A stretch of 11,029 nt of DNA from a virus. Taxonomy: Duplodnaviria > Heunggongvirae > Uroviricota > Caudoviricetes. Below the pieces are notes generated by a model. It searched no databases, was not told the origin of the DNA, and worked only from the letters and a program-made list of their open reading frames with translations. Position numbers and translations under genes: made by a program. Below, in pieces: positions 741 to 10,542 of this stretch (the stretch's first letter is position 1; each line of letters starts with the position of its first letter). The DNA lies in the IMG/VR virus record IMGVR_UViG_2671181094_000005; one strand, 5' to 3'.

Positions 741-3185
741 TCAGCTGATACTGATACCTGCTGTGGATTTCTTCATCACCACAACCAGCAAATCACTGAT
801 ACTGGCTGTGGGATACCAGTCATTTACCAGCCACGCTGATACCGAAAACTCCAGCGTCATGTGACCGTGACCGGCAGGCATATCAATAACACCTGTATAA
901 ACCAGCGTATTATCCAGCGCGGTACGGTTATAAATTTCAGCACCGTTTTTCTTCACTATCAGGCGGCATGACGAATAAATATCGTTATTCTCCCGCTCAT
1001 GTTTAGCGTCACGAAACGCCACCGTGGGAATAACAATCTGCCGGTCAAACGGCTGATCGTCATAAACCCTGACGGTAATGGTCCCTGATGGCCACCGCTC
1101 CGGTGCACGGGAGTCCCGGGGGAAAGCTTTGCCCACTGTTTTAACGAGATCGCCTTCAATCTGGTTCGCAGACAGTTTTCCCAGAACCCGACAGTTTTCA
1201 TTTATCGTGACATTGTTGAGCGTCCCGGCGTTCGCATTCACACTGCCACTGATATCCGCATTTTTCGCCGTCAGTCGCCCGTCCGGTGTAAGGGAAAATG
1301 CAGGAGGATTACCGCCGCTGGTAATGGTGGGAGCCGTCAGGCGTTTCAGGAACACGTCGTTCATGAATATCTGATCACCCTGACCAACAAACATCGGCTT
1401 TGTGTTGCCATTCGCAGGATTAATCATCGCAATCCTGTCTGCCGCCAGCAGCACCTGACTCTGCATTCCTGCTGGCGTATTCTCAATACCGGCACCGATA
1501 CCCGCAATATAAAGGCGTCCGTCCTGCATCTGCTGCAGTTTCACGGCCCACATGCTGTTCAGGTTATTATTTGTATCAACCTGAACCTTCTGTATCTGCT
1601 GGATCGCTGCACTCTGGTCTTCCAGTTTCTTATTGACGGTCTGTGTGATTTCATTGCTGACATCCGTAATGGATGTCCTGATTTCAGCCAGGTCAGGCGC
1701 AAGCTGACCGTTATCAATCTGCGTCCACAGCTCCTGAGCCAGATGGGTTTTCCCTATCTCGCCTTTGAAAAAATCCAGATAGCCGGATGCGTCATCACTC
1801 GGCTGACCAACAGCCTCCACGAATGCCGATTTGCCAACGGTGTTCACACTGCGGATATAAAAGTAATAATCATGGCCCGGTTTGATATTGATACTGGCGG
1901 CTATCCAGTACAGCCCCGCACCAAGGTAGCGGGCTGTGGTTTCAACCTGCCTGATATCGGTAATCCGCGTTTCCGAGAACCAGAACTCAAACTGTACCGT
2001 CGGATCATAAACCGCAAGATGCGGCGTGGCAGTTATCTGAAAATAGCCCGGCGTCAGCTCAATCCGCGACGGTGCTACCGGTGCGGCAATCCGGAACGAT
2101 ACCGACGCCGGATCGCCCTGCTGTCCCCACGCATTTACCGCCCGGACTGTCAGCGTGTACCGTCCCAGCGCCAGTTGCGTGAAGCGGTATGTGGTTTCTG
2201 TCGTCCGGGCCGTGCTGACCAGCCGCTCACTGCCGTCGTCCGCTGCCACGGTCAGGCGAAGCATAAAGCTCACCCCCTTCACCACCTTCGGCGTGTCCCA
2301 GCGGGCCAGTACCTGATACTCCCCGCTGTCTGCGGTGACTTCGGCAGTCAGGTGCTGCACCGCTGGCGGCGTGACACCATTCACCGTGCCGCTCTGGTCG
2401 CCGTCAAAGTGCGCCCCGTTATCCACGATGGCCTCTTTTTCCGGCACATGCTGCACGGCGGTGATGGCATACGTGCCGTCGTCGTTCTCACGGATACTCA
2501 CGCAGCGGAACAGTCGCTGGCGCAGCGTCGGCAGCTTCAGCCCCCATACGCTGTATTCAGCAACACCGTCAGGAACACGGCTCACTTTTACCTTCACGCC
2601 GTCGGTGACGGACTGAACCTCCACGCTGACCGGACTCCCCTGCCCGTCAACCAGGCTTATCAGCGTGGTGCCGGAAGATGGCAGCGTGATTTCACGGTCG
2701 AGCGTCAGCGTCCGGGTCTGGCTGTTTACCGCCAGCACGCGCCCGCCGGTGCTGATACCGGCATAGTCATCATCGCAGATTTCAATGACATCGCCCGGTA
2801 CATGGCGAAGCCCTTCAGCACCCACGCTGAAATCCACGGTCTGCGTCTCCAGCAGTTCCGTTTTAATCAGCCACAGCCCGGCGCGGTGTGCCTGCCCCCG
2901 GCTGGTACAGCCAAAGGCATCCATCTTCGTGACATTACGACCGTAACGGGCAATGGCCTGCGTATCTTCAACAAGCTCTGTCGCCGTCTCCCAGCCGTTG
3001 TTCGGGTCAATCCAGTTCACCTCAACGGCATTATGGCGGTCCTTCAGGGCGCTGAAGCTGTAGCGGAACGGCGCGCCATCATCCGGCATCACCACATTAC
3101 TGCGGTTATAGGTCCACACCTTATCTGATGGTCGGTCCTGCACGAACGTCAGCGTCTGCCCGTTCCATACCGGCATACAGCGCAT
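741..3185 (-). pseudogene. J: Tail tip / host specificity protein J, N-terminally truncated (C-terminal ~815 codons only)
   Basis: Long minus-strand ORF whose translation from [22 protein letters not shown] onward is colinear with roughly residues 318-1132 of lambda gpJ (recalled from memory, identity not computed), including the fibronectin-III-like central region; the last ~130 residues diverge. Upstream of codon MRCMP the same frame hits a stop (3225-3227) and the preceding sequence is terminase-derived in another frame, so the J N-terminal third is absent. The ATG at 3212 in the ORF track is fortuitous. Confidence 0.8.
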
Positions 3186-3186
3186 C

Positions 3187-3519
3187 ACTGGCTTTAAAGG
3201 GATCCGGTTCATTACGGTAGCCGGTCATGGCATCCATGGCTGGCTGAAAATATTCACCGCAGTGCGGACATGGCCAGTACCAGCGGCGGCGGTCACCACG
3301 ATTGTAAAGGGAAAGAATACCAGTCGTCGGTGGCGCTTCATGAGGCGACTTACGTCGCCATTTGCTGTCGCAGATGTCACGTCCCGGCGAGCTCTCCACC
3401 AGAGTCATCCCGGCGGACATAAATGTGGTGGTACGTTTTGAGGCCTGGGAGAAACCATCACCCTCGCTGTCGATATTCTCCGGAAAACGGTCGTAATCGG
3501 TTAAGGCGACAAACCGGTA
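3187..3519 (-). pseudogene. Terminase large subunit (lambda gpA-like) internal fragment
   Basis: Translation ...YRFVALTDYDRFPENIDSEGDGFSQASKR...WYWPCPHCGEYFQP... resembles the middle of lambda gpA (DDDIEQEGSPTFLGDKR ... HVACPHCGEEQYLKFGD, zinc-finger-like CPHCGE motif), recalled from memory. No proper start codon; frame differs from the upstream Nu1-like fragment and the downstream J fragment. The 99-aa track ORF 3121..3420 is the tail of this frame running into J-derived DNA. Confidence 0.55.
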
Positions 3520-5369: not shown

Positions 5370-5575
5370 TTCATTTTCACTTTCTTAAATCTAACGATAG
5401 ACGGCTAACATTTAAGTATTGTGAAATATTATCAAATGTAATCATCATTGATTTACAAAAGATACATTTTGCCCCGAAAGGATTCCTGTCAGAAACATCA
5501 AAAGATGATGTTCTATACTGAGAACCATGGCAACACGGGCATCTAAAGTGAATATGGTTTGTAATATTTTCTACC

Positions 5576-5788
5576 TCAAAGTGCCACAACATGAACAGCC
5601 GCGGGGCCTTTAGGTCCGTTCTCAATACCAAATTCGACTTCCTGATTCTCAGTTAACGTTTTGAAATCGTTGCTCTGAATAGCTGAGAAATGGACAAACA
5701 CATCTTTGCTACCATCTTTCGGCGTGATGAAACCAAAACCTTTTTCAGGGTTAAACCATTTCACTAAACCAGTCATTGTGTTAGACAT
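5576..5788 (-). CDS. cspI: Cold shock protein, CspA family (CspI-like)
   Basis: 70-aa product [70 protein letters not shown] matches recalled CspI almost exactly, with RNP1 (KGFGFI) and RNP2 (VFVHF) motifs. AAAGGTAATA sequence ahead of the start as in cspA. Alternative ATG one codon upstream at 5791. Confidence 0.85.
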
Positions 5789-5938
5789 CATTATTACCTT
5801 TTGAAGAAGTTAGCCCTTGGGCAGAATGGTCCGAAAAAAAATATCAGAGAGAAAAACCAACAAGGAAATCTCAAGAGGTACAAATAATAAAATTATAACA
5901 ATGACTGCTTCAGATAATTTTGTAACAAACCAGAACAC

Positions 5939-5968
5939 CATTAACGCATGATTAACCAACCATAGCAA
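5939..5968 (-). promoter_or_regulatory. Candidate cspA-type promoter (-35 TTGCTA, -10 GTTAAT/TTAATG) preceding a ~145-nt 5' UTR with cold-box-like element
   Basis: Minus strand: TTGCTA (5963-5968), 17-18 nt spacer, then TTAATG (5939-5944), followed by GTGTTCTGGTTTGTTACAAA. This resembles the cspA promoter and cold box (TTGCAT ... CTTAATG CACATCAACGGTTTGACGTACAGA, from memory). The long UTR is typical of cold-shock genes. Confidence 0.4.
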
Positions 5969-6151: not shown

Positions 6152-7179
<1,028 letters not shown>

Positions 7180-7292
7180 GGATATTTATCAGGATTTATC
7201 GGCTTCAAATCCCCGGATATGTTAAATCTTACCTCACCAGTGATGGGCACTGGCGGGAGGAGGATGTCAATCTGATAAACACAGAGGCGACT

Positions 7293-7553
7293 ATGGATTA
7301 CACAAATCTACCTAAACAAACTTTTGCTGATTTAATCGCACTCAGGCAAGCAGTCGTAGCTCTAATCAACTTGTTGCCGGAGAAGGAAAAGGAATTAGTT
7401 AAAGCGCTTCTTAACAGAACTGCCGCCGATTTTTCATCATATCCACTGACAGATGACCTTGCGGACCTTCCTGAATTAATTGCAGCGTCCGCCAATAAGC
7501 TTACTGAAGAGATTTACCCTCCTCAAAAATCTTCACAAAATTCCTGCGAGTAA
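7293..7553 (+). CDS. Hypothetical small acidic protein (86 aa) on the opposite strand inside the lysis cassette
   Basis: ATG at 7293 preceded by ACAGAGG Shine-Dalgarno at 5-nt spacing; stop at 7551-7553 followed about 20 nt later by a hairpin plus T8. Predicted helical, net acidic. Uses several rare codons (CTA, AGG, AGA) and overlaps the 3' end of the convergent DUF1327 ORF by 53 bp, so coding status is uncertain. Confidence 0.4.
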   Translation: MDYTNLPKQTFADLIALRQAVVALINLLPEKEKELVKALLNRTAADFSSYPLTDDLADLPELIAASANKLTEEIYPPQKSSQNSCE

Positions 7554-8052
7554 CTTCAATGCAATAATCGTAAAACGCCGCAAACTGCTCATCGCGGCGT
7601 TTTTTTTCATCTTCAGAAGGAATCAGCACCGACAATTTTTTATTCAGATCAGCGACGCTGCCCTCCAGTTTTTCAATGGGCGATTCAATATCATCTTTTT
7701 CTGACCGCAATGCCGTCGGTGGCGTCTTCAGAGAACCAGTAATTCTTCCCGGTAGCTTTCCTTTGTAGGTTATCCACACATTCTGCGCCTCTAAAATTAT
7801 GGGGCGCTTTTCCGGCGACTGCTCATCCCCTTCACATAACCCGGCAGCAACATCCAGGAAGACCTGTCTGATGCTCCTTCTGGCTGCTGCCTCATAAAAC
7901 TCCAGCGCGGCACCTTCAACACGGTCCAGCGAGATGTCCAGGTCAAAAATTTCACCGTCAAAGTGTTTTTTGTCCCGTAAGGCTACAGTTACCGCCACTT
8001 TATTCTCAAAATTGCGAACTCCTTTCACAACCAGTTCATAGTCTTGAGTCAT
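7501..8052 (-). CDS. DUF1327 (YdfR-like) lysis-cassette protein, apparently with a C-terminal extension (183 aa)
   Basis: ATG at 8052, 4 nt after the holin stop. The N-terminal ~70 residues (MTQDYELVVKGVRNFENKV...EGAALEFYEAAARRS.RQVF) resemble E. coli YdfR as recalled; the remaining ~110 residues are not recognised. The ORF-track start at 8073 overlaps the holin and is less likely. Confidence 0.6.
   Translation of the reverse strand: MTQDYELVVKGVRNFENKVAVTVALRDKKHFDGEIFDLDISLDRVEGAALEFYEAAARRSIRQVFLDVAAGLCEGDEQSPEKRPIILEAQNVWITYKGKLPGRITGSLKTPPTALRSEKDDIESPIEKLEGSVADLNKKLSVLIPSEDEKKRRDEQFAAFYDYCIEVTRRNFVKIFEEGKSLQ
7575..7607 (+). terminator. Rho-independent terminator-like hairpin after the plus-strand small ORF
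   Basis: Stem ACGCCGC (7575-7581) / GCGGCGT (7594-7600), 12-nt loop, then 8 T (7600-7607). Lies inside the coding sequence of the minus-strand DUF1327 ORF; on the minus strand only 4 U follow the stem. Confidence 0.4.
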
Positions 8053-8056
8053 TGGA

Positions 8057-8272
8057 TTACTCTCTTCTCGCAACCTTACGCCTGTCTTCTTTAATCTTGA
8101 AATAAAGGTTTGTCAGATACGTCAGCATGCCAAATACCAGACTACCCAATACACCTATTGCCGCCCACTGTGAGGGCGTGACTTTATCGAGCAACTGTAA
8201 AAACCAGTAGCCAGCACTGCCTGCAGAGGTGCTGTAGGCGATGCCCGTTGTTAACTTATCCATGGATTTCAT
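8057..8272 (-). CDS. Class II holin, phage 21 S21-like pinholin (71 aa) with dual-start motif
   Basis: [71 protein letters not shown]: two transmembrane segments and a charged C-terminus, colinear with S21/EssD as recalled. Met1-Lys-Ser-Met4 dual-start arrangement (antiholin/holin). Strong GGAGGTGA Shine-Dalgarno 4 nt upstream of the ATG at 8272; the 99-aa track ORF is an upstream extension. Confidence 0.85.
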
Positions 8273-8363
8273 AGCCTCACCTCCGCAGATAACGGATGGT
8301 GTACACGGTTTGGTTCGAAGAAGGAAAGAAGTTACATTAGCGTAAGGCCCGAACATCTATTCA

Positions 8364-8462: not shown

Positions 8463-9176
8463 CTAAGAAAATCTTGATAAATATTGGTGCGGAGGCACAC
8501 CAAAATATCCTCTAAAAACACTTACAAAATATGATGCATTGTCATACCCGCATATTCCCGCCACCTTGCCGACAGTATGGTTACTGTAGATCAATAATCT
8601 TTGCGCCATCATCATTCGTTCTTCAAGAATTAATTTACTAAACGATAATCCTTCGTCTTTTAATTTTCTTTTTAACAAACTCTCGCTCATATATAATCTT
8701 GAAGATATATCACAAAGTCTCCATGACGCTGAGATATCCGAGTGAATAATAGCCTTAACTTTACAACCTAAGCTATTAAGACTTCCGAACAAAAAACTTT
8801 GCACTATTTTCTCTGAAGATAAGACAGCAAGACATGCAAGTGATATTTGATTTCTAACTACATCCACGGTTTTGCTATCACAATTCAAGCATGCAACCAA
8901 GTTCCTTAACAATGAAAAATCTTCACATTCTACTATCAAGTATGACGGATAAAACCTTCTTACAGAAAAAGGTGAGAGTGTGTAGTTTTTAAAGAAATCA
9001 TTAACTGTTTTCTCCTCAATATCTACGATCATTAGATGATCTGTATTTGACGAAAAAAGATCTTTTAAATTGTATTCAATGAGGACAGCATTTCCTTTTT
9101 TAAACAAAATATCTTCTTTACCAATTCGGACACCAAACGAGTTCAACACCAAAATGATAGAACATATGTATGGCAT
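8463..9176 (-). CDS. AraC/XylS-family transcriptional regulator (AppY/EnvY/Rns-like), AT-rich
   Basis: C-terminal AraC-type double helix-turn-helix (...WRLCDISSRLYMSESLLKRKLKDEGLSFSKLILEERMMMAQRLLIYSNHTVGKVAGICGYDNASYFVSVFRGYFGVPPHQY). N-terminus MPYICSIILVLNSF resembles AppY MDYVCSVVFICQSF (from memory). Most likely start is the ATG at 9176 with AGGTGGA Shine-Dalgarno; the ORF-track start at 9185 is a GTG. Strongly AT-rich with a ~400-bp AT-rich upstream region. Confidence 0.8.
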   Translation of the reverse strand: MPYICSIILVLNSFGVRIGKEDILFKKGNAVLIEYNLKDLFSSNTDHLMIVDIEEKTVNDFFKNYTLSPFSVRRFYPSYLIVECEDFSLLRNLVACLNCDSKTVDVVRNQISLACLAVLSSEKIVQSFLFGSLNSLGCKVKAIIHSDISASWRLCDISSRLYMSESLLKRKLKDEGLSFSKLILEERMMMAQRLLIYSNHTVGKVAGICGYDNASYFVSVFRGYFGVPPHQYLSRFS

Positions 9177-9582
9177 ATTATCCACCTGATATCATTGGGG
9201 TTACACCAGGTAAGTATAGGTGGAAAATCAATATTCGCCAGTTCAACAATAAGGAAAATCTCATTGCATCACAACTATAAAACCATGTGTTTAACTCACA
9301 AAAAACAAATCATTAAACTAATCTGTTATATTATAATAGCTGCGTGCAATAATAATATTATATGCTCTTTATATTCACTTGAAATATCTTCATATAAAAA
9401 CAGATTGAATAAAATCTTTTGGGGCTGGTATGTTTACCAACATTAAATTGCATCTCAATGTTTTCTTTAGCGTGAACAGGATTTTTATAAAAACTGACAC
9501 TATGAGCATCATAGCGTAGTTTTTACGATTGTAAATATCCTGCATACAGGAACTCATCACTTTCAGATGATATCGCATACAG

Positions 9583-10542
9583 TTAATTCACCATCAGTCT
9601 TAGAGCCAGTTCTTCCGGATAGGGATCGAAGTAATTCTGTGTAAGCAAGTAATCATTAGGATACTCACCCAGATAATGCTTCAGCAGAGTCAACGGCGCA
9701 AGAAGAGGCAATGTGCCAAAGCGATAGTTAAGTATAACCTCGCTCAACTCTTTACGCTGGCGTGTACTTAAGTAATTACTAAAATACCCCTGTATATGCA
9801 TCAGCACATTCGTGTGATTTTTACGTGATGCTGGTTTTCTGAGAATCGCCATCAGATTATCACGATACACCTCAAAGTATGATTCAAGGTCCGCCCACTC
9901 GTGTATTGCAGCCACAAATGGTCCCATATCTTTATAGCCTGCCTGGCTATGCGCCAACAACTGAAGCTTATAACGACTATGAAAAGCTAATAACTCTCTT
10001 CTTGATAATTTCTCCTTGTAAAGGTGATTGAGCTCATGCAAAGCAAAAACTCTTTCAATAAAATTCTCACGAAGCACTGGATCATGTAATCGCCCATCCT
10101 CTTCAACCGGTAGCCAGGAAAACTTTTCCATCAAAGTGCTCGTAAATAGTCCCACTCCATCTTTACGACCTCGATTACCATTTTCATCATAGACACGCAC
10201 GCGCTCCATGCCACAGCTGGGAGATTTAGCACAAACCACAAACCCCGATACATCCTTTAATTTGTCCATATAAGAACGACTAAACTCTGTCATTCTCTCT
10301 GTCACATCCTCATTCTGGTCGTGGCTGAAACACATCCGTATATTTCCTTGCTTCGAGCGCACAAGTCGTAGAGCAGGACGCGGAACTGGCAGCCCTATAG
10401 CCATTTCCGGACATACTGGTCTGAATGTTACCCATTCCACTAATTTGTCCATTAAAAAGTCATCTCTTTTGTGACCACCATCAAAACGAACAGCAGAACC
10501 GCCCAAACAACCGCTGATCCCAATCACAGGTTTTTTTATCAT
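9583..10542 (-). CDS. DUF523 (TudS-like thio-nucleobase desulfidase) fused to DUF1722 (YbgA-like) protein, 319 aa
   Basis: N-terminal half carries three Cys in the contexts expected for the [4Fe-4S]-binding DUF523/TudS fold (GISGCLGG, PVCPE, KSPSCGM); the C-terminal half is a helical DUF1722-like domain. ATG at 10542 with GGGGGAGG upstream. Domain assignment is from motif recognition, not a profile search. Confidence 0.7.
   Translation of the reverse strand: MIKKPVIGISGCLGGSAVRFDGGHKRDDFLMDKLVEWVTFRPVCPEMAIGLPVPRPALRLVRSKQGNIRMCFSHDQNEDVTERMTEFSRSYMDKLKDVSGFVVCAKSPSCGMERVRVYDENGNRGRKDGVGLFTSTLMEKFSWLPVEEDGRLHDPVLRENFIERVFALHELNHLYKEKLSRRELLAFHSRYKLQLLAHSQAGYKDMGPFVAAIHEWADLESYFEVYRDNLMAILRKPASRKNHTNVLMHIQGYFSNYLSTRQRKELSEVILNYRFGTLPLLAPLTLLKHYLGEYPNDYLLTQNYFDPYPEELALRLMVN

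What the first reader, a model, noticed from the sequence alone, without database searches (positions are those of the whole stretch)
7501..8052. DUF1327 (YdfR-like) ORF appears C-terminally extended to 183 codons
Only the N-terminal ~70 residues match what I recall of the ~100-aa K-12 YdfR. The remaining ~110 residues are charged, coiled-coil-like and unrecognised, and contain the terminator-like hairpin of the convergent plus-strand ORF. This could be a genuine longer family member, a fusion created by the insertion, or a read-through.
Basis: inference. Interest (0 to 1): 0.4.

Follow-up and report, generated by a model that had tools for sequence, protein, structure and literature searches.

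The report
Long YdfR-family prophage protein, already catalogued
The 183-codon gene is an intact, common long version of the mosaic YdfR/DUF1327 prophage gene that sits between the holin and endolysin genes of E. coli lambdoid prophages: ordinary, although RefSeq wrongly marks it as a truncated pseudogene.

Summary
The ORF is real: 7501..8052, minus strand, 183 codons, with its ATG 4 nt after the holin stop codon.

- **Match to K-12.** K-12 YdfR (103 aa) matches only residues 1-74. K-12 is the odd one out, because Pfam DUF1327 covers residues 1-112 here. Only residues 113-183 lie outside Pfam.
- **Already catalogued.** PHROG phrog_2091 (183 positions) covers the whole protein. The exact protein is on at least 1000 public contigs, named "YdfR family protein", and in the phage record PhiR63_1.
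- **A mosaic family.** Members fall into length classes of 103, 114-116, 169, 171, 176, 183, 211, 268, 296 and 329 aa.
- **The tail.** It has a three-heptad zipper-like helix (122-143) and a second helix. It recurs behind other N-termini, or at the start of a protein. Its frame stays open to the same "...KSLQ*" stop in all 13 loci checked, despite in-frame indels, one of which removes exactly one heptad.
- **The convergent gene.** Every such form comes with a convergent 86-aa gene (7293-7553) that overlaps it by 53 nt. That gene's terminator-like hairpin (7572-7607) lies in codons 149-161.

Function is inferred only. The N-terminal domain probably binds RNase E/G, as shown for K-12 YdfR 1-72, and the tail may mediate self-association.

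Low interest; already known as a sequence family.

The parts
7501..8052 (-). 183-codon YdfR-family ORF (stop codon 7501-7503)
   Evidence: ORF list and sequence. phrog_2091 matches end to end. The exact protein is on at least 1000 contigs.
7717..8052 (-). Codons 1-112: the DUF1327 domain. Codons 1-74 (7831-8052) are the part shared with K-12 YdfR.
   Evidence: Pfam PF07041 at 143 bits, residues 1-112 on profile 1-92/93. BLASTP to K-12 YdfR covers 1-74 at 84%. AF2 predicts strands 5-14, 18-27 and 34-43 and a helix 50-73 at pLDDT 60-80.
7504..7716 (-). Codons 113-183: the helical tail module outside Pfam
   Evidence: No Pfam or NCBIfam hit. phrog_36381 and phrog_15975 match only this part. Only 17 cluster representatives among 1.84 billion match it. 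AF2 predicts helices 123-143 and 147-182 at low confidence.
7624..7689 (-). Codons 122-143: three-heptad zipper-like helix (I122, I126, L129, V133, L136, L140, L143)
   Evidence: The a/d positions are 7/7 I/L/V, matched by 2 of 5000 shuffles. The 176-aa variant lacks exactly seven residues, GSVADLN 131-137.
7572..7607 (+). Terminator-like hairpin (stem 7572-7581 / 7594-7603, loop 7582-7593) with a T8 run at 7600-7607, inside codons 149-161
   Evidence: Fold energy is -16.7 kcal/mol, z = -2.5, on the plus strand. The minus strand also folds, but no U-tract follows the stem there. The hairpin matched the search pattern in 9 of the 12 fetched loci that carry the convergent gene; the window itself is a tenth instance.
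7293..7553 (+). Convergent 86-aa ORF that overlaps the last 17 codons and the stop codon of the 183-aa ORF (7501-7553)
   Evidence: phrog_2572 matches end to end, E = 4e-53. The exact protein is on at least 1000 contigs. GAGG lies 6 nt before the ATG. It is present in all 12 fetched loci with the ...KSLQ* tail and in the window, and absent from K-12 and the 116-, 296- and 329-aa forms.
8057..8272 (-). Phage-21-type class II holin gene (essQ) immediately upstream
   Evidence: Pfam Phage_holin_2_1. RefSeq annotates essQ in E. coli HS.
6646..7179 (-). Lysozyme gene (rrrQ) downstream, 321 nt after the ORF
   Evidence: Pfam Phage_lysozyme. RefSeq annotates rrrQ.

Best explanation
**What it is (shown).** This is an intact, widespread 183-aa allele of the mosaic YdfR/DUF1327 gene. 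That gene occupies the slot between the class II holin and the lysozyme genes in the late (lysis) operon of E. coli lambdoid prophages; this copy lies in a Qin-like prophage.

- It is built of separable blocks: a DUF1327 part (residues 1-112) and a 71-residue helical tail (113-183).
- The tail moves as a unit of its own among relatives.
- The last 19 codons belong to the same sequence block as a convergent 86-aa gene.
- That gene's terminator-like hairpin is written into codons 149-161.

**How it probably works (inferred).**
- The protein is made from the late transcript, translationally coupled to the holin gene.
- Its N-terminal beta3-alpha domain is 84% identical to K-12 YdfR 1-74. K-12 YdfR 1-72 was shown to bind the catalytic half of RNase E and RNase G, and the K-12 protein co-purifies with RNA. 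So this protein probably binds host RNase E/G or RNA late in infection.
- The zipper-like helix 122-143 would provide self-association or a docking surface.
- The hairpin stops transcription of the convergent gene but lacks a U-tract in the late-operon direction, so late transcripts can still reach the lysozyme gene.
For: - **Domain and family coverage.** Pfam DUF1327 covers residues 1-112 at 143 bits. phrog_2091 covers 1-183. phrog_406 matches only the DUF1327 part and phrog_36381 only the tail.
- **Spread.** The exact protein is on at least 1000 contigs as "YdfR family protein". An identical CDS is annotated in phage PhiR63_1. 281 of 5426 complete E. coli genomes carry the 510-bp block, including HS and REL606.
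- **Frame conservation.**
  - Length classes share the same tail through in-frame indels, one of exactly one heptad.
  - The frame is open to ...KSLQ* in all 13 loci checked (the window plus 12 fetched loci). This includes five that RefSeq calls pseudogenes.
- **Tail as its own module.**
  - It is found with its own start codon in the 213-aa slot protein of an Stx2 phage.
  - It is found behind a different N-terminus in P0176.
  - It is found in front of DUF1327 residues 75-112 in P0185.
- **Breakpoints** were mapped by blastn.
- **Heptad statistics** are and the **hairpin**.
- **RNase E/G binding** by K-12 YdfR 1-72, pull-down and RNA co-purification come from PMC13232886.
Against: - **No direct evidence of expression or function** exists for this allele.
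- **Selection on the tail is weak or unresolved.** pN/pS is 0.4-1.0, against 0.3-0.47 for the N-terminal part. Much of the conservation reflects recently shared DNA.
- **The AF2 models are poor.** Mean pLDDT is 54 for this protein and 44 for the 296-aa form. Residues 77-126 are unmodelled, although 75-112 are the most conserved.
- **RefSeq disagrees.** It annotates only codons 1-112 as a pseudogene.
- **The K-12 result is modest.** Overexpressing YdfR changed few transcripts.
- **No promoter was found** for the convergent gene.
Confidence: 0.7

Rival explanations
1. The extension is a functionless by-product of mosaic recombination in a decaying prophage. In this view the real gene is the 112-116-codon DUF1327 unit. 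After the tail/antisense-gene block was joined on, the ORF simply ran on to the next stop. This is in effect RefSeq's view that it is a pseudogene.
For: - PGAP marks codons 1-112 as "incomplete; missing C-terminus" in HS, REL606, M9 and three other strains.
- The break against the 116-aa form falls exactly after codon 112.
- pN/pS of the tail reaches about 1 in some pairs.
- The window's prophage is defective: its tail and terminase genes are truncated.
Against: - The same 183-aa CDS is annotated in the complete genome record of phage PhiR63_1.
- The frame is open in 13 of 13 loci, across versions with heavily diverged N-termini (pS about 0.7) and several in-frame indels.
- The heptad pattern is non-random, and a seven-residue deletion keeps the register.
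- The tail is homologous to parts of the 296-, 329- and 213-aa slot proteins.
- The pseudogene flag reflects a mismatch in length with a reference protein, not a stop codon or frameshift.
Confidence: 0.2
2. The extension is a read-through. A stop codon at about codon 103-116 was lost by point mutation, so downstream non-coding DNA became coding.
For: Shorter family members of 103 and 114-116 aa exist.
Against: - Shorter forms do not have a stop aligned to an otherwise homologous sequence.
- Homology to the 116-aa form ends at codon 112 and resumes only at 7206.
- Homology to K-12 ends at codon 67.
- The tail has protein-level homologues of its own.
Confidence: 0.03
3. The tail is a degenerate BRCT-like domain that would bind a phosphoprotein or nucleic acid.
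For: A profile of the family hits the PARP-1 BRCT domain over residues 115-182. The E-value is 0.025 and the alignment looks plausible.
Against: - All four hits are the same protein.
- No Pfam BRCT family matches even at E up to 10. The only weak hits are coiled-coil or helical-hairpin families.
- AF2 predicts two long helices, not an alpha/beta fold.
- The first BRCT strand is missing.
Confidence: 0.03

Closest known systems
E. coli K-12 YdfR (b1555, P76160; 103 aa; Qin prophage)
   Same: It occupies the same slot, 4 nt after essQ and before rrrQ. Residues 1-74 are 84% identical. This region contains the stretch (1-72) shown to bind RNase E and RNase G.
   Different: K-12 replaces 663 nt of the window (7190-7852) with an unrelated 98 nt. 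It therefore lacks DUF1327 residues 75-112, the tail and the convergent gene, and its stop overlaps the rrrQ start.
114-116-aa YdfR family proteins (phrog_406; e.g. phage PhiR55_1, P0090, P0118)
   Same: The DUF1327 part, residues 1-112, is 87-94% identical, in the same slot.
   Different: They end 2-4 residues after P112. They lack the 510-bp block 7207-7716, which holds the tail and the convergent gene.
296- and 329-aa YdfR family proteins (phrog_1085; e.g. P0049, Stx2a phage Stx2_95)
   Same: They have DUF1327 plus a homologous tail up to about residue 176.
   Different: After codon 164 the DNA diverges and the ORF continues into a further domain of about 130 aa. There is no convergent gene, and the lysozyme gene follows within 36 nt.
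213-aa slot protein of Stx2a phage Stx2_12E129_PPompW (related to P0179)
   Same: It is in the same slot. Its N-terminus is homologous to tail residues 128-178 at 65% identity, with the same heptads.
   Different: It has no DUF1327 domain, it carries the extra C-terminal domain, and it is followed by a different antisense gene of 104 aa.
Phage proteins that target host RNase E (T4 Srd, T7 gp0.7, phiKZ Dip). This is a functional analogy from my own knowledge, not tested here.
   Same: If the inference from K-12 YdfR holds, this is a phage-encoded protein that contacts RNase E.
   Different: There is no sequence or fold relationship. The effect of YdfR on RNase E activity is unknown, and overexpression changed few transcripts.

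Membership tests
Pfam DUF1327 (PF07041) / NCBI 'YdfR family protein' | Match to the family HMM above the gathering score (25 bits) | tested here: met
   143.4 bits, E = 2.6e-42, residues 1-112 on profile positions 1-92 of 93.
   The model ends at residue 112, leaving 71 residues outside. No NCBIfam model matches.
PHROG phrog_2091 (183-position phage protein family) | End-to-end match to the family profile | tested here: met
   Residues 1-183 on profile 1-183, E = 8.1e-112.
Full-length orthologue of K-12 YdfR | Collinear similarity over the whole 103 aa | tested here: not met
   Only residues 1-74 align. The DNA breakpoints are at 7853 and 7189.
RNase E/G-binding protein (as K-12 YdfR) | Physical interaction with the RNase E N-terminal half or with RNase G | not testable with these tools
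   Known only for K-12 YdfR 1-72 (PMC13232886). It is inferred here from 84% identity over residues 1-74.
Coiled coil / leucine zipper | Heptad repeat with hydrophobic a/d positions in a predicted helix | tested here: inconclusive
   - Residues 122-143 have 7 of 7 a/d positions as I/L/V, matched by 2 of 5000 shuffles.
- A variant deletes exactly one heptad.
- That is only three heptads, the helix has low pLDDT, and the Pfam zipper hits are below threshold.
- Residues 147-183 show no heptad pattern.
BRCT domain | Match to BRCT family models, or an alpha/beta BRCT fold | tested here: not met
   There is only one weak PDB sequence match, E = 0.025. There is no Pfam BRCT hit at E up to 10, and the prediction is all-helical.
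Known anti-phage defence proteins (PADLOC) | Match to any PADLOC model | tested here: not met
   No hit for the 183-aa protein, the 86-aa protein or two longer relatives.
Intrinsic terminator (hairpin 7572-7607, plus strand) | A G+C-rich stem followed by a U-tract, just after a stop codon, and actual 3' ends there | tested here: inconclusive
   The 10-bp stem, the U8 tract and the position 18 nt after the stop are met. The 12-nt loop is longer than usual, so the scan did not list it. Transcript 3' ends cannot be tested here.

The most novel reading that the evidence does not exclude
The tail module and the convergent 86-aa gene form one mobile two-gene cassette that works as a unit inside the lysis operon. 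For example, the two proteins could be partners. Alternatively, the antisense transcript could damp leaky late transcription into the lysozyme gene in lysogens; it ends at a one-directional terminator written into codons 149-161. The strict co-occurrence (13 of 13 loci) and the 53-nt overlap do not exclude this.
Probability: 0.07. Interest if true: 0.45.

Novelty: already known. Interest (0 to 1): 0.18.

Why it matters
It matters little as a discovery. There are two practical points.

1. **Annotation.** In all six RefSeq complete genomes inspected, including the laboratory strains HS and REL606, PGAP cuts this open 169-211-codon ORF at about codon 112 and labels it a pseudogene. So the tail is invisible to annotation-based analyses.

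2. **Follow-up on YdfR.** K-12 YdfR, recently reported as an RNase E/G interactor, is an atypical recombinant of a modular family. Work on YdfR function should take into account the conserved 75-112 segment and the tail and extra domain that most relatives carry.

Tried and rejected
- **NCBIfam:** no model matches.
- **PADLOC:** no hit.
- **Rfam:** nothing in the region. The only hit in the window is the cspA thermoregulator.
- **BRCT lead:** a PDB profile search gave a weak PARP-1 BRCT match. Pfam does not reproduce it, so I rejected it as chance.
- **AF2 of this protein:** mean pLDDT 54.
- **AF2 of the 296-aa relative:** mean pLDDT 44. Both models are too poor to say whether the tail is an independent domain; only the secondary structure is usable.
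- **Foldseek:** searches of PDB and BFVD with the poor model gave nothing at E <= 0.001.
- **Pairwise pN/pS of the tail:** 0.4-1.0, inconclusive. The closest copies share nearly identical DNA, and the distant ones align poorly around the indels.
- **Word-indexed search with the tail alone:** it returned only E. coli and Shigella fragments.
- **Promoter scan:** no sigma-70-like site upstream of the 86-aa gene.
- **"DUF1823" label:** some phage records give the 86-aa protein this label, but Pfam does not support it (E = 0.13).
- **Literature:** apart from PMC13232886, searches found nothing on YdfR function.

Full report
**1. The observation**

The minus-strand ORF 7501..8052 exists as described. 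It has 183 codons plus TAA, and its ATG at 8052 lies 4 nt after the stop codon of the holin gene. This is the same spacing as between essQ and ydfR in K-12.

The neighbours are:
- a phage-21-type class II holin gene upstream (8057-8272);
- a lysozyme gene (6646-7179) and an Rz-like gene downstream.

The stretch 7180-8360 is 100% identical to E. coli HS and many other strains. The window therefore comes from a Qin-like lambdoid prophage.

**2. What matches what**

- K-12 YdfR (103 aa) aligns only to residues 1-74, at 84% identity.
- At the DNA level, homology to K-12 stops at 7853 (codon 67) and resumes at 7189. K-12 has an unrelated 98 nt in place of 663 nt here.
- K-12 is a poor yardstick. 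Pfam DUF1327 (93 positions) matches residues 1-112 at 143 bits.
- Only 71 residues (113-183) therefore lie outside the curated domain.
- These residues are not unknown either:
  - phrog_2091 has 183 positions and matches end to end (E = 8e-112);
  - phrog_36381 and phrog_15975 match the tail alone;
  - phrog_406 matches the DUF1327 part alone.
- The exact 183-aa sequence is on at least 1000 public contigs. It is named "YdfR family protein" and is UniProt A0A1U9T3F9.
- It is a CDS of the complete phage record PhiR63_1.

**3. A modular, mosaic family**

Homologues fall into discrete length classes: 103, 114-116, 169, 171, 176, 183, 211, 268, 296 and 329 aa. Alignment and blastn breakpoints define these blocks:

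| Block | Residues | Features |
|---|---|---|
| A1 | 1-74 | Three strands plus a long helix in AF2, pLDDT 60-80. Very divergent alleles, pS about 0.7. |
| A2 | 75-112 | Nearly invariant even in DNA. |
| B | about 113-146 | Contains the heptad helix. |
| C | 147 to about 176 | Second helix. |
| D | about 130 aa | Extra domain, present only in the 213-, 268-, 296- and 329-aa forms. |

Breakpoints against the window:
- Against the 116-aa form, homology ends exactly after codon 112 (7717) and resumes at 7206. B, C and the convergent gene are therefore one 510-bp block.
- Against the 329-aa form, the break is after codon 164 (7561).

The tail occurs in three other contexts:
- with its own start codon, followed by D, in the same slot of an Stx2 phage that has no DUF1327;
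- behind an unrelated N-terminus (P0176);
- in front of A2 (P0185).

Full-sensitivity HMMER finds only 17 cluster representatives among 1.84 billion that carry the tail. The module has few relatives: those named by a source in the indexed search are all Escherichia or Shigella.

**4. Is the extension really coding?**

Evidence for:
- Forms of 169, 171, 176, 183 and 211 aa all return to the same "...FVK(I/A)FEE(G/S)KSLQ*" ending through in-frame indels.
- The 176-aa form deletes exactly seven residues (GSVADLN). That is one heptad of a helix whose a/d positions (I122, I126, L129, V133, L136, L140, L143) are all I/L/V. Only 2 of 5000 shuffles match this.
- In 13 of 13 loci examined the frame is open to that stop.
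- Five of those loci are flagged by RefSeq as "pseudogene, missing C-terminus". I translated them, and they give intact ORFs of 183, 169, 211, 183 and 183 aa.

Evidence against, or neutral:
- Pairwise pN/pS of the tail is 0.4-1.0, against 0.3-0.47 for A1.
- Much of the identity among copies is recently shared DNA.
- Both AF2 models are of low confidence.
- No fold match is significant.

On balance the tail is a genuine, weakly constrained helical module.

**5. The convergent gene and the hairpin**

- The plus-strand ORF 7293-7553 (86 aa) matches phrog_2572 end to end and has GAGG 6 nt before its ATG.
- It overlaps the last 53 nt of the 183-aa ORF.
- It is present in every locus whose YdfR-like ORF ends in ...KSLQ*. 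It is absent from K-12 and from the 116-, 296- and 329-aa forms.
- Eighteen nt after its stop lies a hairpin: a 10-bp stem and a 12-nt loop followed by U8 (7572-7607).
- In the late-operon direction the stem also forms, but no U-tract follows it. The element therefore looks like a one-directional terminator.
- It encodes E149-Y161. The palindrome arises from KKRR (AAAAAACGCCGC) facing AAF (GCGGCGTTT).
- The 329-aa form has no convergent gene, and there one synonymous change breaks a stem pair.
- No promoter-like site was found upstream of the 86-aa gene.

**6. Function**

Nothing is shown for this allele. The only experimental data concern K-12 YdfR (PMC13232886):
- Residues 1-72 were recovered in a two-hybrid screen with RNase G.
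- They interact more strongly with the RNase E N-terminal half.
- Strep-YdfR pulls down RNase E 1-598 and co-purifies with DNase-resistant nucleic acid.
- Overexpression changes few transcripts.

The window protein is 84% identical over that region. The best inference is therefore a late-expressed accessory protein whose N-terminal domain contacts RNase E/G or RNA. The zipper-like tail would provide self-association or docking. This is inference, not evidence.

The tail itself cannot be needed for lysis. K-12 and the 116-aa forms lack it, and the 213-aa slot protein of an Stx2 phage lacks the DUF1327 domain.

**7.

- "Genuine longer family member" is right.
- "Fusion created by the insertion" is partly right. 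The tail and the convergent gene come as a block, and the final codons belong to that block. The direction of the event cannot be told.
- "Read-through" is not supported.

**8. Verdict**

This is an ordinary, already catalogued member of a mosaic prophage gene family of unknown function. There are two by-products:
- RefSeq systematically under-annotates it as a pseudogene cut at codon 112. The block occurs in 281 complete genomes. In all six inspected RefSeq genomes the CDS is cut at about codon 82-114 and flagged as a pseudogene.
- K-12 YdfR is an atypical truncated recombinant of the family.

Noticed in passing
window 7501-7716 (L001 8322-8537; L014 1195-1410): RefSeq/PGAP annotates only about codons 1-82 to 1-114 of this ORF as a "YdfR family" or "DUF1327" pseudogene ("missing C-terminus"). 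This holds in E. coli HS, REL606, M9, 12690, CB6837 and 99RCEF. Translation shows intact ORFs of 169-211 aa, with no stop or frameshift.
   Followed up: yes
window 7293-7553 (+): This is a convergent 86-aa gene (phrog_2572, no Pfam domain) in the lysis operon, between the YdfR-like gene and the lysozyme gene. It always accompanies the ...KSLQ* tail forms. A differently sequenced antisense gene of 104 aa sits at the same place in an Stx2 phage (L007 3121-3435) and shares an "LLP.E.E.VKA" motif with it. Its function and promoter are unknown.
   Followed up: partly
window 7717-7830 (codons 75-112) versus 7831-8052 (codons 1-74): Alleles whose first 74 codons are very diverged (pS about 0.7) share almost identical DNA in codons 75-112 (pS 0.04-0.12). 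AF2 cannot model this most conserved segment (pLDDT about 30). It could be a recombination linker or an unrecognised functional element.
   Followed up: partly
P0185 and P0176: These are shuffled relatives. P0185 places the zipper module in front of DUF1327 residues 75-112. P0176 joins an unrelated 110-aa N-terminus to the same tail.
   Followed up: no
P0178: This 622-aa protein has nine tandem repeats containing "EKLEGSVTDL...RFAAF" and an OmpA-like C-terminus. It matches the tail at E = 2e-14. The match is probably compositional or convergent, but the shared motif is striking.
   Followed up: no
window 5549-5946 (-): Rfam cspA thermoregulator (109 bits) in the leader of the cspI-like cold-shock gene (5576-5791).
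   Followed up: no
window 741-3420 (-): A tail-tip (J-like) ORF is joined directly to a terminase large-subunit fragment. Both are pseudogenes in the HS annotation. A large deletion has removed the morphogenesis genes, so the prophage is defective.
   Followed up: no
window 8463-9185 and 9583-10542 (-): An AraC-type helix-turn-helix gene and a YbgA-family gene lie upstream of the holin gene. K-12 Qin has ynfU, cspB and cspF in that position. This is a different set of cargo genes in the same prophage position.
   Followed up: no
window versus L001 (E. coli HS): The offset between the window and HS is 821 nt at the YdfR-like gene but 200 nt at the lom gene. The window strain therefore differs from HS by about 620 nt of indels somewhere in between.
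   Followed up: no
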